NCBI GenBank assembly: GCA_963676835.2
Contig: CAXXFF010000002.1
Span: 1-64,000, forward strand
Reading direction: 5' to 3'
Source: Marispirochaeta sp.
Lineage (GTDB): Bacteria > Spirochaetota > Spirochaetia > JC444 > Marispirochaetaceae
Length of the DNA stretch: 64,000 bases
A program made the position numbers. Position 1 is the first letter of the stretch, and each line of letters opens with the position of its first letter. Below, piece after piece: positions 12,001 to 21,000 of this stretch.

Positions 12001-15000
12001 AACCCCAAACACGGCCTTGTTGAAGAAGAGTGGGTTCCAACCTACATTCCCCATCATGAAGAGGCATCGGTGTCGCTGGCGGAGCTGCTCCATTTTTTCC
12101 GCCGCACCAAAGACCCGGACGAGATTGCCCTTATGAAGCATATTTTCCGGGCTTCAGAAGCGGGCCACAAACGCGGTTTTGAGGTAATAAAGCCCGGAGT
12201 AAGCGAAATGGAGATCTACCTCGAGATACAGAAGGCGGCTCTTACTGAGCTCGGAGAAGCCGCCGTGGTGTATGGCGATTTCCGTGCCATGAATGCGGAA
12301 AATCCCAAGCTCGGGGGCCTTCCTACTCAGTACCGCCTGAAGGATCAGGACCTGTTTATTCTGGATTACGGCATTATCTACCGGGGTTACCGTTCGGACT
12401 TTACCAGCGCCATAGCAGCGGGAACACCCACCGCAGAACAGGAAGAGCTTCATGGTTACGCCATAGAAATCCTTAAGGAAACAGAAGGACTACTGGCTCC
12501 GGGCACCCATACAAGGGATGTATTTGCCGCCATGAAAGAAGGCATGGAAAAACGGGGCTGCGGGAAGGATTTCGGAGGCCATGCCGGCCACGGCCTGGGA
12601 ATGGGCCATCCCGAGGCTCCCGGTTTTGCACCGGAAAGCGATGAGGTGCTGATGGAAAACGAGATTGTTACCCTGGAGCCAGGAATCTACCGCAAAGACG
12701 TAGGAGGCATCCGCCTGGAGCATAACTACCTGATAACAGCAGATGGTTTTGAGCAGCTGACCCGGCACAGCCTGGAACTGAACTAACCGGGGTTTTACGC
12801 TTCAAGACCCCACAATCTGTACATATTGTAGTTGCAATTGACAATTTGTACAGATTCATTTTACCCGTCCTTACCGTTCTCTATCCTCCGTTCCTCTTCT
12901 CCTTGACCGCCCGCACCGGGCAACGTACTTTTACTCCATGAAAACCGGTAAGTTTCTGTTAATCCTGCTCCTCACTGCACTCCCCCTTTCTGCCGGTCCC
13001 GAAGATACGGGAAGAGAACTTTTCAACCAGGCAACCAAACAGTTCTATAATGAAGAGGTACCTCTTTCATCAATTAATTCTCTGGTCAAAGAGGCCCGGC
13101 TTCAGTTTTCCACCATTTCTGATACCTGCTTGAAAAACTACTGGTTTGGACGCTGTGATTTCCTGATTGGTTTTATCCAAATGCAGGGGGGTAACAAAAA
13201 AGCTGCTGAAAAATCATTTTTGTCATCCCTTGCCCTGGCGGAAGCTTCGATGGACTGTGATTCCAGCGGGGAGTCCCACCGCCTTGCCGCCGATAGTCAT
13301 GCTCAGCTTATAGAGATAAAAGGTGCCTTCTACGCAATCCGAAACGGCGGCACCATACTGGATTTGGCGGAAAAGGCTGCGGAACTTGATCCGTCTAACC
13401 CGAAAGCACGGCTCACCCTGGGCTTAAGTTACCTCAACGCGCCCCGGATGGCTGGGGGAAGCATTGAAAAAGCGCTGAAGGAGCTCAGGAATGCGGAAGA
13501 ACTGGCAGTAACGGAAGAAGACCGCTTCAGTGTGTACCTCTGGATGGGAACAGCCCTACGGAAAGCTGAAAAGTTTACAGAGAGCAGGATGTACCTTCGC
13601 CGGGCTGGGGCTATTTTTCCGGGAAACTCCCTGGTCAGGCAAATGCTGAGAGAGGAGTAGAGCTTTTCTGCTCAAATGCAGGACTGAATACCGGCCGTTC
13701 CAGAACCATATTGGCAACCATCTTTCCGCTCTGTACCGCAGATATAACTCCTCCCGGCCAGAGGGTGTAGTGTCCTGCAGCATAGAGATTTTTCAGGGGC
13801 GTTTGAAAGAGATTCTTTCCCAGCCGTTTATACACCGGTGAGACCTGGTCATCGTAACACCAGCCCCCGGATGATCCTTCGCTGTTCATGGTAAACCGTT
13901 CCGCGCTCAGCGGGGTTCCCACATCGAGATAGGATATCCGCTGCTTCAGCCCGGGAAAAATCCGTTCCGCCGTATGGACCAGCTCATAGCCGACTTCACG
14001 CTTAAGGTCCTGGTAAGCCTCAGTACGGGGAAGAGTGCCGCCGCCGTTCCGCCAGGCGTTCTGCCAGTTACGGGAACTGTAGGTCTGCAGTACCAGGGAG
14101 CTTTTTCCGGGAGGTGCCATATCCGGGTTGCGGTCGCCGGTAAAATTGGCGGTTACCCACATTTTGCTGTGAATATTGCGGGGTGATTCGGCATGGGGAA
14201 AATGGACATCGTAGTTTGGGAAGACAAAGACATGCTGGCCCTGCATATGGCCGGCGGTCTCTTCCGGAGTAGAATCAATACCAAGATATACATTAACCAG
14301 TGATTCCGTAAGCCGGGTATTTTTAAGTTTGCCTGCTTTCCTTGCGGGAAAAACTCCCTCCGGCAGCAGTTTTGATAACAGGGCTTTATAGTCGCCGGCA
14401 TACACCACGGAATCCGCCTCTATCCGCTCTCCATCGGCTGTTTCCACAGCATTAACCTTGCTGCCTTTCAGACTGAAGCCGGAAACAGTTGTACTCCAGC
14501 GCACTGTACCGCCCCGGGAGGCAAAGCTTGATGCCAGGCGGTTCATAAAGGCCTGCATGCCCCCCCGGGGATACCAGTAGTCGTTGGCCCACAGGTGCCA
14601 GAAGCCGGCAAAAAAGAGGTAGGTCATGCGGTAGTAGCCGATATTGGTAAACCAGCGGCGCAGCGCCGGATTCCGGATAACCGAACACTGCCGCTCCCGT
14701 TCCCGGAAGGTCATCCAGCGCATCAGTTTCGGCAGCCAGGGAGCTGCATTCAGAAGAGATCCGGCCCCGGGGTTCTGCAAAAGGGGAAAGGATTCAGGGG
14801 TACAGACAGACTGGAGAAACCGGGAGACTTCGCGGATCTCTTTGAATAATACGGGGAGACCCGTCTCTTCCGGAAAAGCCTCCTGCAAGGCTGCCTCTGC
14901 ACTGTCGATGGAATCGATTTGGAAATCAAAATCATCCGAAATAAAGCGGAAGCGGGACTGCTGAAAATCCTCACGGCGATAGAGACCCAGTTCATCCAGA

Positions 15001-18000: not shown

Positions 18001-21000
18001 TGCTCTTTTTTGTTACCGTGCCCTATGCCTGCCTTTTTATTCTGCAGGTTCTGAGAAGTTACTTATCTGATACTCTTCTGCCTCTTCCACTCTGGCTGTT
18101 TGGAGCAGCCGCCGCTGTTGCCCTTGCGGGAGTTCCGGTTTACCGGAAAAGGCTGTATACCTCGGTGGTGCTTGCTGTTACTGCGCTGTTCCTTATTCTC
18201 GCCCTGCTGCTCACCCCGCAGCTGCTTTTAAGCCGCAACTTCTGGGTATACATGGCCCTGACATACATTCCCTTCCTCATATTCAACGGCATGCTGACTT
18301 CGGCTCCGGTGGTTGAATACAGCAGCAGAGCAATATGGGGAGTGCGGGTGTTCTCCATCCCGCTGGAAGATTTCTTTTACAGTTTCGCAATGCTGGGCTT
18401 GTCGGCAATGGTCTATACCGGAGCGGACAGATGGCTATAGCCGGCAAGAAAGCTGCCGTTATCGGGGCAGGCCTCGGCGGCCTTTCTGCGGCAGTTCGCC
18501 TTGCCCACAAGGGGTGGAAGGTTGATGTTTATGAGGCAGGGAGTGATGCCGGCGGCAAGGCAGGCAGCATTTCCGCCGCGGGCTACCGCTGGGACAGCGG
18601 GCCGTCGCTGCTTACCATGCCAGAGGTACTAAAACAGCTGTTTACCGAAATCGGTGAAGATATGGAGAAATGGATACGACCGGTAAAACTGCCGGTAATA
18701 TGCCAGTACCGGCTTTCCGATGATACCCTCCTCAATGCCTATGCAGACACCAATGCCTTTGCCGAAGAGATAGAGGCAAAAACTGAGGATTCTGCAGAAT
18801 CAGTAATGGCCTACCTGAATTACAGCAGGGAGATATATAAAAGGACAGGCTTTCTTTTTTTACAGAAGAGCCTGCATGAGCTGGATTCGTATCTGGACCG
18901 AAAGGCCCTTAAAACCATGCTGAATATTGGGAAAATCGACCCCTTTCGCACCATGCATCGGGCAAACAGGACATTCTTCAGGGATCCCCGGGTAATTCAG
19001 CTTTTTGACCGCTATGCAACCTACAACGGCTCCAGCCCCTTCCAGGTGCCGGCAACCCTCAATATTATTCCCCATGTTGAGTACGGACTGGGAGGATACG
19101 GGGTTGAAGGAGGCATCCGGGCCATACCTGCAGCGCTGCAAAAACTGGCGGAAAAGCGGGGTGTACGGTTCCACTTTAATACCCCTGTTGAACGAATCCT
19201 GACAACAACCCGCCGTGTAAGCGGAGTTGAAGTACGGGGGGAAAAACTGGACTATCCCGTGGTTATTTCAAATGCGGATGTAAAGCGCACCTATACAATG
19301 CTCGGAGATACCAACGCCCCATGGGCACAGCGGTACCGGCGGCTGGAACCTTCATCGTCAGGGCTGGTGTTTTTCTGGGGTATGGGCAGAAAAACTGATT
19401 TATCGGTGAATAACATCTTTTTCAGCAGTGACTACCCGGGGGAATTCCGCTCAATTTTTCAGGAAGGTCGCTGCCCGCAGGATCCTACGGTATATGTGAA
19501 TATTACCTCAAAAATTACCCCCTCCGATGCCCCTGTAGGCGGGGAAAACTGGTTTGTGCTGGTTAACGCCCCCGGGGATACCGGACAGAACTGGGAGGAA
19601 GAGACAGCTCTGACCCGCAAACGGGTCAGGAAAAGACTAAGCCGGGCCTTGGGCAGAGAGGTTCTGGACAGCATAGACTATGAAGAGGTAATGACCCCGT
19701 CGGATATCGCAGCCCGCACAGGCAGCCCCGGAGGAAGCCTCTACGGAATCTCCTCAAACAGCCGCTCCGCCGCATTCAACCGGCACCCGAACCGTTCCCG
19801 GCGGCACCGGGGACTTTATTTCTGCGGAGGCAGCGCCCACCCCGGAGGAGGAATGCCCCTGGTTATACTTTCCGGAAAGATTGCCGCAAATCTGATACAG
19901 AAATATGAGAAATGAGAGAAGAGATCTCAAAAGTACTAAAAACAGTAGGAGTTCCTGAATAGAAAAATACTACCGGGGTATTATTGACCATAAAACAGAA
20001 GATGCATATTGTTGGTATACTGTTTATTCAGTCGAAGGAAGGATACAGCTATGACTAAAAACGAGACCAGAAAAGCGTACACAAAACCTGAGATTCAGAA
20101 ATGGGGTTCCGTTACCGACCTTACCCAGGGCGGACCTCACGGTGGACCTGGAGGCAGCGCTCCTAAACCCAGTACCGGGATCTGCATCCCCAAAAAATGG
20201 GGCGAAAAGTAGGAGTACTGATACCGCTCAGTTACAATAAAAAAGGAGGCTGATGCCTCCTTTTTTTTTGTCTAATTCTCTTTCTGCGTTCTTATAGCGG
20301 CTTCGCTTTACTTAATTACAGCACTCAGCAGCGTCACATCCTCCACAAAATCCTCGCCACCGGCCTGTTCCAGAAGTTCATCCAGAAGACGTTGATGATA
20401 CTTTTTTCCCGGTTCAACAGCTTCAATGGCTTTTTGCACCGGAGTTGAATTATCCGGAAGACCGGTAAAATTCTTCAAAAGCCCTTCGGAGTAGGCAACC
20501 AGCATGTCTCCCGGATTAAGTTCTTCCGTATATTCCGCATAAAAGACAGATTCCGCATCCCCCACTGCGGGGCCGAAAACACACAGGCGGCGGACTTCCC
20601 CATTGGAAATGACAAAGGGGCAGTTTCTGCCCGCATTGGAATAGGTAAAGATTTTTGCAGGAATATCAAGAAGCCCGGCCATAAGGCTTATGGTAACCCC
20701 TGCGGTTTTTCGCATTTCAAAATTCATTCTGTTGTTGAACCAGGTAAGAAACTGGGAGGGTGAAATGCCTGTTTTAAGCCCCCGGCGGATGTATTCAGGG
20801 TAAATAACCGCCTTCATTATGGCGGTTATAAAGGCCGCCTGAATTCCATAGCCGGAAACCTCGCCAACCAGAATAAGATAGCGGTCCCCCGGAAGGTTGA
20901 TAACATCGTAGTAATCGCCTCCGCAGTAAAGATCGGGAACCGGCAGGTAGGTAACCTCAAACTCAACAGAATCGGTACTTACCAGGTCGGGACGGACCAG

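What a model noticed while it worked through the whole genome (the two positions that open the first line are those of the whole stretch)
13635..19915. CarH-type B12 light-sensor module on an XRE-type DNA-binding domain inside a carotenoid gene cluster
g00868 (303 aa) joins an XRE/Cro-type helix-turn-helix (res 4-64) to a B12-binding module that keeps the CarH signature Wx9EH (W129-x9-EH, RRWEAGDLDIDEEHQ) and the lower-ligand ExHxxG (EPHKIG at 174), and it sits between phytoene-desaturase-family genes and a lycopene cyclase. Boldest reading: it is an adenosylcobalamin photoreceptor-repressor that switches carotenoid synthesis on in light in this anaerobic marine spirochaete, built on an XRE instead of the MerR DNA-binding domain of all studied CarH/LitR proteins. 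New: a second DNA-binding chassis for B12 photoreceptors (useful for optogenetic tools) and light-controlled pigmentation in Spirochaetota.
Evidence so far: Pfam HTH_3 8-62, B12-binding_2 84-153, B12-binding 167-273; motifs found in the sequence; neighbours g00867, g00869, g00871 desaturases, g00870 lycopene cyclase; full-length relatives (residues ~4-290, 25-33% identity) in 6 other Spirochaetia genomes of 25 searched, B12-module-only matches in more; one literature search (CarH+photoreceptor+B12+XRE) gave no relevant paper.
(Added by a program. Inside this text positions count along the whole contig: contig position 1 is position 1 of the stretch shown here. "Call 12" and the like, gene names such as g00115 and contig names such as C1 are that model's own, and its searches are not shown. 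The text may have been shortened before it was handed on; [...] marks where a part breaks off. The agent that wrote the report below was given it as the finding of a first reader that could run no searches.)

Follow-up and report, generated by a model that had tools for sequence, protein, structure and literature searches.

The report
B12 light-sensing repressor with XRE domain
A spirochaete gene most likely encodes a vitamin-B12-based light sensor with a different DNA-binding domain from the known sensor CarH, and a matching DNA site sits in the shared promoter of its carotenoid genes, which suggests a second kind of B12 light switch, found in spirochaetes and clostridia-like bacteria.

Summary
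g00868 (15200-16111, minus strand) joins an N-terminal XRE helix-turn-helix to a CarH-type B12 module with Wx9EH and ExHxxG. It belongs to a family found in Spirochaetota and Bacillota (39 and 41 of 80 genome loci). New here is a 17-bp near-palindrome upstream of 55 of 80 family genes. A matrix built without this genome scores its best site in 4.43 Mb inside the divergent carotenoid promoter (17705-17721), with a second site 41 bp away over both promoters. In other genomes the site precedes mevalonate, carotenoid, UV-repair, fasciclin, heliorhodopsin and chemoreceptor genes or operons. Best reading (0.75): an adenosylcobalamin photoreceptor-repressor that works like CarH but is not a CarH (no MerR domain; palindromes, not direct repeats). 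Against: no light or B12 data. This genome's crtB lacks the site, four of five genus relatives' carotenoid clusters lack it, and exact-pattern counts were above control in only one of three genome sets. g00867 is not an established desaturase. The cassette looks acquired. The architecture is auto-annotated in databases, but I found no paper on it. The scan noted an inverted form (C-terminal XRE) before, on other DNA. New variant; interest 0.68.

The parts
15200..16111 (-). g00868, XRE-HTH + CarH-type cobalamin-binding regulator, 303 aa; overlaps crtI upstream and g00867 downstream by 4 bp each (one operon, inferred)
15926..16090 (-). XRE/Cro helix-turn-helix (residues 8-62); its recognition region is nearly invariant in the family, but the family's Gln30 is Asn here
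   Evidence: Pfam HTH_3; conservation
15653..15862 (-). Four-helix cap (B12-binding_2, residues 84-153) with G126-x2-W129-x9-E139-H140
15293..15613 (-). Rossmann B12-binding domain (residues 167-273) with E174-x-H176-x-x-G179, G198-x3-P202, S221 and G252-G253
16108..17598 (-). Phytoene desaturase CrtI (CrtI/CrtID type), first gene of the leftward operon
   Evidence: NCBIfam NF058655 659.6 > 640 and TIGR02734 470.6 > 238.1
13635..15203 (-). g00867, FAD oxidoreductase of the CrtI superfamily, role unknown; last gene of the leftward operon
   Evidence: TIGR02734 121 < 238; no close homologue among the family's neighbours
17664..17680 (-). Predicted operator 1 (TTACACGATACGAGTAT read on the minus strand); exactly the spacer of the leftward sigma70-like promoter, and overlapping the -10 of the rightward one
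   Evidence: 14.9 bits, rank 6 in the genome
17705..17721 (-). Predicted operator 2 (TAACACTAAATGTGTAT read on the minus strand); 41 bp centre to centre from operator 1
   Evidence: 21.1 bits, rank 1 of 41 sites of 11 bits or more in 4.43 Mb
17658..17686 (-). Candidate leftward promoter TTGCAA-17-TATATT (9 of 12)
   Evidence: consensus match only
17638..17665 (+). Candidate rightward promoter TTTACA-16-TATAAT (11 of 12); a weaker alternative lies at 17681-17709 (8 of 12)
   Evidence: consensus match only
17772..18440 (+). Membrane-type lycopene cyclase, two fused domains
   Evidence: PF18916 twice, TIGR03462
18431..19915 (+). CrtD-like 1-hydroxycarotenoid 3,4-desaturase; overlaps the cyclase gene
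   Evidence: NF042421 471.5, cut-off 500

Best explanation
g00868 is an adenosylcobalamin (AdoCbl)-dependent, light-switched repressor. In the dark, AdoCbl held between the four-helix cap (Trp129, Glu139, His140) and the Rossmann domain (His176 on cobalt) stabilises a head-to-tail dimer, and probably a dimer of dimers. This lets pairs of XRE domains bind two 17-bp near-palindromes, four helical turns apart, in the divergent promoter, blocking the crtI-g00868-g00867 operon (autoregulation) and the cyclase-crtD operon. Light breaks the Co-C bond, the oligomer loosens and both operons are expressed, turning phytoene made by the unlinked crtB into coloured carotenoids. Lack of B12 would also derepress. 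Shown here: domains, motifs, fold, gene order, the motif and its placement. Inferred from CarH and photocobilins: AdoCbl binding, photolysis, repression. Inferred more weakly: the tetramer.
For: (1) Wx9EH in 110 of 111 XRE-bearing relatives; ExHxxG in 81 of 111, most others DxHxxG. PMC8156234 says Wx9EH is absent from MetH and defines AdoCbl-binding CarH, and the genome's two corrinoid proteins lack it. (2) Three of the four SignatureFinder elements are met (PMC11796333). (3) Operator in 55 of 80 upstream regions at 13 bits or more, leave-one-out, versus 1.1% of 1600 shuffles; the best site in this genome lies in this promoter although the genome was not used for training. (4) Outside the training windows, 17 of 44 photoprotection or isoprenoid ORFs have a site upstream versus 12 of 746 other ORFs; HMG-CoA synthase 7 of 7, fasciclin 4 of 6. 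Distal sites precede heliorhodopsin in two genomes. (5) In 5 of 5 genus relatives the orthologue is the gene directly before the photolyase, with a site upstream. TtCarH likewise sits with crtB, photolyase and uvsE. (6) Three related B12-less XRE proteins and one unrelated one that share the end of the helix also have the site upstream, so the site follows the HTH. (7) Predicted homodimer 0.76 versus best control 0.00 (mark reached by 20 of 30 solved pairs and 1 of 23 single chains; runs share at least 56% of contacts; pLDDT at least 83). It packs cap residues 135-159 on Rossmann residues 195-212 as in CarH; the pass may come from likeness to solved CarH dimers. (8) Site spacings cluster at multiples of about 10.3 bp. 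(9) The genome has a PduO-type adenosyltransferase and a riboswitch-led ABC importer.
Against: No measurement of B12 binding, light response or DNA binding. This copy departs from its family at Gln30 (Asn), Gly173 (Pro, which breaks GxxH) and Thr223 (Ala), and the GG motif lies 28 residues on, against the published 22-27. It has no His after the Trp, so no bis-His light state; CtMerR and photocobilins also lack it and still respond to light. crtB and the prenyl synthase of this genome have no site, and the photolyase has only a 7.6-bit site. Carotenoid clusters of five genus relatives have best scores of 8.1, 4.6, 7.2, 14.8 and 6.6. Exact-pattern counts versus reversed control: 12 vs 13 in 5 genomes, 58 vs 32 in 29, 18 vs 19 in 30 relatives. 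Of 43 distal sites fetched, 16 lie inside ORFs and 14 precede unrelated genes (my classing). Target categories were chosen after seeing the data and the loci are kin. 0 of 7 photolyases, 1 of 6 CrtI-family and 2 of 6 crtB genes in the loci have a site of their own. Overlap with sigma70-like promoters is only 47 of 84 versus 1142 of 2900 random positions.
Confidence: 0.75

Rival explanations
1. A dark cobalamin sensor: AdoCbl or another corrinoid acts as co-repressor and reports B12 supply, with light playing no role in nature.
For: The same module senses B12 absence in CarH (passage in PMC9304148). Tetrapyrrole genes (hemA, hemCD, chlorite-dismutase-like) lie in 4 of 80 loci, and a vitamin-type ECF component is divergent in 3. 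Many hosts are clostridia-like bacteria whose light exposure is unknown.
Against: No B12 import or synthesis family was named among the 184 neighbour proteins scanned, which were part of about 390 neighbour clusters. The genome's riboswitch-led importer has no site (best 6.6 bits). Photolyase, UvdE, carotenoid and heliorhodopsin targets fit light, not B12 supply.
Confidence: 0.1
2. An oxygen or redox sensor, or a CarA-like repressor released by another factor: the cobalt redox state or an antirepressor controls the operator.
For: Carotenoids in some spirochaetes are oxygen-induced (passage in PMC4511686). SOD lies in 2 of 80 loci. CarA shows that such a repressor can be B12-independent.
Against: CarA lost Wx9EH, while this family keeps it almost invariantly. 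Photolyase and heliorhodopsin need light. No conserved partner gene sits beside the regulator.
Confidence: 0.08
3. The family is as described, but this copy is a decayed or mis-wired passenger, or the sites are read by another XRE protein or used for activation.
For: Departures at conserved positions 30, 173 and 223. B12-less XRE proteins with the same site exist. The cassette looks acquired.
Against: The ORF is intact and tightly overlapped with both neighbours, the two sites are kept and include the genome's best, and site 1 fills a promoter spacer. B12-less XREs with Thr, Ser or Pro at position 30 still have the site. Whether this genome has another XRE with that helix was not checked directly.
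Confidence: 0.07

Closest known systems
CarH/LitR (T. thermophilus, M. xanthus, B. megaterium; also CtMerR, PDB 8JBS)
   Same: Four-helix cap plus Rossmann B12 module, Wx9EH and E/DxHxxG, predicted head-to-tail dimer, link to carotenoid, photolyase and UV-endonuclease genes, site overlapping a promoter.
   Different: XRE tetrahelical HTH instead of a MerR winged helix; 17-bp near-palindromes in helical phase instead of tandem 11-bp direct repeats; no His132 equivalent; about 28% identity over the B12 module; NCBIfam CarH score 44 vs cut-off 400.
Photocobilins / photoglobin-B12 proteins (SasPcob, AbDPcob; PMC10979010, PMC8717448)
   Same: Same AdoCbl signature without the bis-His residue. About 350-aa proteins with an N-terminal extension, taken to be of this type, are the closest non-XRE relatives and fall among the XRE family's B12 modules in a quick tree; they were picked for similarity, so this placement is biased.
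   Different: They carry a bilin-binding globin and enzyme outputs; g00868 has no globin and has a DNA-binding output.
Corrinoid proteins and the MetH cap (MtbC, MtaC, MttC); JGI often labels this family 'methanogenic corrinoid protein MtbC1'
   Same: Same two Pfam domains and fold.
   Different: They lack Wx9EH and any HTH (the genome's own two copies); no methyltransferase partner beside the family.
XRE/Cro repressors (ImmR of ICEBs1, PDB 7T8I)
   Same: HTH match at E 1.4e-7; palindromic sites and autoregulation.
   Different: A B12 module replaces the usual dimerisation or peptidase domain.
B12 module with a C-terminal XRE (earlier scan notes e1-2132312, e1-6795211; unchecked)
   Same: B12 module paired with XRE; one note also has a carotenoid operon.
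   Different: Inverted domain order and other phyla; its relation to this family was not tested.

Membership tests
CarH/LitR | [quoted passage not shown] | tested here: not met
   Pfam gives HTH_3/XRE and no MerR family; the model shows five helices and no strand in residues 2-62
CarH/LitR | Wx9EH in the four-helix cap | tested here: met
   W129, E139, H140 align with TtCarH W131, E141, H142; 110 of 111 relatives
CarH/LitR | ExHx2Gx41SxV/Tx22-27GG (PMC8156234) | tested here: inconclusive
   E174, H176, G179 and S221 are exact; position 223 is Ala (family Thr 82%); GG follows after 28 residues
CarH/LitR | Curated model NF052513 over its cut-off | tested here: not met
   44.4 bits vs 400; nothing in the genome passes
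CarH/LitR | Operator of tandem 11-bp direct repeats nAnnTnnACAn | tested here: not met
   TnnACA occurs 3 times on plus, spaced 66 and 2 bp, and not on minus in 17599-17774; palindromes instead
CarH/LitR | His next to the Trp for the bis-His light state (TtCarH only) | tested here: not met
   Glu130; His is not among the four commonest residues in 63 family rows; not required in CtMerR
Light-responsive cobalamin-binding domains (SignatureFinder: GxxW, EH, GxxH, GxxxP) | All four signature elements | tested here: inconclusive
   GxxW, EH and GxxxP are met; GxxH has Pro173 here but Gly in 91% of 111 relatives
Light-responsive cobalamin-binding domains | Head-to-tail dimer of the B12 module | tested here: inconclusive
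   Predicted without ligand, 0.76 vs best control 0.00; may reflect likeness to solved CarH
Light-responsive cobalamin-binding domains | AdoCbl binding and green-light photolysis changing oligomer state or DNA binding | not testable with these tools
   needs purified protein
Photocobilin | Fused bilin-binding globin domain | tested here: not met
   Residues 1-290 are accounted for by the HTH, a short linker and the B12 module
Methyltransferase corrinoid proteins | Curated models over cut-off; no Wx9EH; no HTH | tested here: not met
   MtbC 48.8 vs 350, TIGR02370 42.5 vs 215
XRE/Cro transcription factors | HTH_3 over its gathering score | tested here: met
   51.1 bits vs 23

The most novel reading that the evidence does not exclude
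A second, separately built class of B12 photoreceptor transcription factors (N-terminal XRE plus CarH-type module) runs a light regulon in spirochaetes and clostridia-like bacteria. It reads in-phase palindromes as an AdoCbl-dependent oligomer and controls mevalonate and carotenoid synthesis, photolyase and UvdE, an RND exporter, fasciclin, heliorhodopsin and chemoreceptors. It can move between genomes as a self-contained regulator-operator-carotenoid cassette.
Probability: 0.6. Interest if true: 0.8.

Novelty: new variant of a known kind. Interest (0 to 1): 0.68.

Why it matters
The B12-photoreceptor repressors described in the papers I read use a MerR domain on direct repeats. An XRE version with a defined 17-bp operator would show that the light switch can drive an unrelated DNA-binding fold. 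It would give an orthogonal green-light repressor-operator pair for optogenetics, and point to light-controlled gene expression (DNA repair, pigments, heliorhodopsin, chemoreceptors) in clostridia-like bacteria and spirochaetes. The predicted operator, and cultured carriers such as Clostridium tetanomorphum, C. bowmanii, Fusibacter bizertensis and Thermohalobacter berrensis, make it directly testable.

Tried and rejected
Literature: ten searches listed no paper on an XRE-type B12 regulator. 'XRE' has 0 occurrences in the main texts of PMC11796333 and PMC8717448 and in the supplement text of the first. Its Fig. 9 and Fig. S9 show unspecified 'HTH' clusters as pictures that I could not see, and subscription reviews on CarH architectures are not in the library. 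Exact-pattern genome counts gave no enrichment in two of three sets. CarH-type direct repeats were not found. A CobA/BtuR adenosyltransferase was not found in the genome, which is 97% complete. Sequencing runs: no RNA holder listed, which says nothing about expression. Earlier scan notes by sequence and by place gave nothing. The careful tree did not finish; the quick tree has TtCarH on a long branch beside the corrinoid proteins, so it does not place CarH, and no one-clade test was run. Azospirillum and Skermanella plasmid hits that seemed full-length are about 350-aa proteins with longer N-termini, treated as photocobilin-like without a domain scan. The role of TtCarH Arg176/Asp201 in dimer contacts is recalled; the terms were not found in PMC9304148, so I do not lean on it. 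Other high-scoring sites in this genome (ranks 2-5, 15-19 bits) lie inside ORFs or not before photoprotective genes and are treated as background. Four short-XRE loci (L185, L186, L188, L189) have no site; L185 and L187-L189 look frameshifted or chimeric.
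Full report
The gene. g00868 is an intact 303-aa ORF at 15200-16111 on the minus strand. Pfam finds HTH_3 at 8-62, B12-binding_2 at 84-153 and B12-binding at 167-273, each over its cut-off. The best solved-structure matches by sequence are CtMerR (8JBS), photocobilins (8J2W/X/Y), a corrinoid protein and TtCarH, and ImmR (7T8I) for the HTH. A model at pLDDT 92.7 gives the same fold matches. 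Against TtCarH taken from plasmid pTT27, G128, W131, E141, H142, E175, H177, G180, G199 and P203 are kept, while H132, G174 and R176 are Glu, Pro and Pro. The curated CarH model scores 44 against a cut-off of 400.

The cluster. Leftward, crtI (16108-17598), g00868 and g00867 overlap by 4 bp each. Rightward, a fused lycopene cyclase (17772-18440) overlaps a CrtD-like gene (18431-19915). g00867 is below the CrtI-family cut-off. crtB, a PF04240 carotenoid gene and a prenyl synthase lie elsewhere (C2:1771409-1775771). In four genus relatives crtI, crtB, cyclase and crtD sit together in one cluster, and the fifth has crtI and crtB there. This genome keeps only crtB and its neighbours at that place. 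The window's crtI, cyclase and crtD are 57-61%, 44-55% and 52% identical to the relatives' copies, against 66-88% for crtB. The cassette is 53.0% GC against 48.4% for the genome, with 25 of 703 windows as high. In a quick tree g00868 falls in a 10-row clade (SH-aLRT 99) apart from the five genus orthologues (100). I read this as an acquired cassette with its own regulator; no donor is claimed.

The family. Of the best 120 of 147 hits, 111 have the XRE-B12 layout. Wx9EH is in 110 of 111 and ExHxxG in 81, most others having DxHxxG; the end of the recognition helix is close to invariant. A genome scan confirmed 127 stretches and kept 80 loci, 39 titled Spirochaetota and 41 Bacillota by my count. 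The ESM Atlas holds auto-named HTH_3 + B12 clusters of 69, 125 and 154 members, so the layout is in databases, often labelled 'corrinoid protein MtbC1'. Neighbours, from 184 scanned representatives of about 390 clusters: carotenoid genes in 9 of 80 loci (10 counted, L049 dropped as only weakly CrtI-like), photolyase 7, fasciclin 8, mevalonate or prenyl genes 11, UvdE or DUF1722 2, RND/HlyD 5, haem genes 4, chemoreceptors 19. In all, 32 of 80 loci hold a carotenoid, repair, fasciclin or isoprenoid gene. Treating fasciclin, DUF1722 and DUF2177 as light-associated is recalled, supported only by search listings.

The operator. Word counts in 340 bases upstream of the family genes showed one strong motif (TAACACAA in 26 of 81 regions, 1.4 expected). 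The matrix is TA[ACT]CAC[AG]-WWW-YG[AT][GA]WW. Leave-one-out scoring finds it at 13 bits or more in 55 of 80 regions against 1.1% of 1600 doublet shuffles; the other regions' sites were picked with the full matrix and the loci are kin, so this overstates somewhat. The matrix, built without this genome, gives its best score in 4.43 Mb at 17705-17721 (21.1 bits) and rank 6 at 17664-17680 (14.9 bits). The second site is the spacer of a leftward sigma70-like promoter and overlaps the -10 of a rightward one. Outside the training windows, 17 of 44 photoprotection or isoprenoid ORFs have a site upstream against 12 of 746 others (categories chosen afterwards). Where the regulator lies inside an operon, the site is usually at the operon head (fasciclin in L052, L068, L072, L073, L076; HMG-CoA synthase in L049). 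Of 43 distal pattern hits fetched, out of 70 listed (regulator-locus hits and palindrome duplicates were mostly skipped), 13 precede HMG-CoA synthase or crtI, heliorhodopsin (two Fusibacter genomes), fasciclin, DUF2177, HlyD or ABC exporters, or a stand-alone B12 module; 16 lie inside ORFs and 14 precede unrelated genes. In 5 of 5 genus relatives the regulator directly precedes the photolyase, with a 17-24-bit site upstream and, in four, a divergent HlyD/RND pair. In this genome that gene is missing there and a 7.6-bit site remains. In metagenome loci, sites precede chemoreceptor genes downstream of the regulator (L174, L177), and 4 of 9 full-length regulators have a site directly upstream. 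B12-less XRE proteins sharing the end of the helix have the site in L182-L184 and L190, which ties the motif to the HTH but also means that other XREs could read it. The 42 spacings between neighbouring sites cluster near 30-31, 39-42, 49-52, 61-62 and 81-83 bp. For the 20 distinct values the phase score is 0.66 at 10.3 bp, reached by 1 of 5000 random sets; promoter geometry or AT periodicity could contribute. Whole-genome exact-pattern counts were 12 vs 13 control, 58 vs 32 and 18 vs 19, so the regulon is small. Genus relatives' own carotenoid clusters mostly lack the site, and so does this genome's crtB.

Mechanism. Published CarH binds AdoCbl, oligomerises in the dark, covers a promoter and falls off in light (passages of PMC8156234). 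Proteins without the bis-His residue still respond, and dimers also occur (passages of PMC11796333, PMC10979010 and PMC9304148). A two-copy prediction scored 0.76 against a best control of 0.00 (20 of 30 solved pairs and 1 of 23 single chains reach the mark; contacts agree at least 56%, pLDDT at least 83). The interface joins the EH helix to the GxxxP region of the other copy, and the XRE domains are not in the confident interface; likeness to solved CarH dimers may explain the pass. The genome can plausibly supply AdoCbl: a PduO-type adenosyltransferase, two cobalamin riboswitches, one before an ABC importer, and MetH. I put dark repression with light release at 0.75, a dark B12 sensor at 0.10, a redox or antirepressor route at 0.08, and a decayed or mis-assigned copy at 0.07.

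Comparison with what is known. It works like CarH but fails three defining CarH tests (MerR domain, curated model, direct-repeat operator). Papers seen: passages only of PMC11796333 (plus a search of its supplement text), PMC8717448, PMC8156234, PMC9304148, PMC10979010, PMC3532121 and PMC4511686; all others as listings. They name MerR, HTH_17, ANTAR or unspecified HTH outputs, not XRE. Ten searches listed no paper on this layout; figures and subscription reviews were not visible and may show it. Spirochaete carotenoids are known, and oxygen-induced in some species. Two earlier scan notes describe the inverted layout with a C-terminal XRE; I did not test them. Verdict: new variant of a known kind, interest 0.68.

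Noticed in passing
G000:C2:1048987-1050126 (L136): A second likely B12 photoreceptor in this genome: a 379-aa protein with an unassigned N-terminal region (photocobilin-like), Wx9EH and ExHxxG, overlapping a GGDEF gene.
   Followed up: partly
G000:C4:377762-379277 (L137) versus L145: The native XRE-B12 gene that precedes the photolyase in genus relatives is missing here; a 7.6-bit site remains between the photolyase and the divergent HlyD/RND pair.
   Followed up: partly
L099:1795-2598 and L115:898-1701: Heliorhodopsin genes in two Fusibacter genomes with 22-23-bit operator sites just upstream.
   Followed up: partly
L103:1829-2476, L125:1011-1673, L058, L062: Stand-alone B12 modules with the EH motif but a changed Trp position, heading FtsX/MacB ABC exporter operons and preceded by paired operator sites.
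   Followed up: no
L005, L008, L017, L020, L024, L032, L056, L174, L177: Chemoreceptor (MCP) genes divergent from or downstream of the regulator with operator sites before them, hinting at light-controlled chemotaxis genes in clostridia-like bacteria.
   Followed up: partly
L004, L006, L009, L012: Regulator follows pst phosphate-transport genes and precedes haem genes (hemA, hemCD, chlorite-dismutase-like), in three of the four with HMG-CoA synthase.
   Followed up: no
L182, L183, L184, L190: Short B12-less XRE proteins (103-129 aa) with two or three copies of the same operator upstream.
   Followed up: partly
L002, L178: Two tandem family-like genes (314 and 315 aa), with the site before the first.
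   Followed up: no
window 20025-20212: A short ORF after crtD that reads like a small peptide gene with a Gly/Pro-rich tail, followed by a possible terminator; below the ORF length listed, seen only in the sequence.
   Followed up: no
window 22600-26692: A large chemotaxis methylesterase/methyltransferase-like PAS protein followed by a PAS histidine kinase, judged from the translation only.
   Followed up: no
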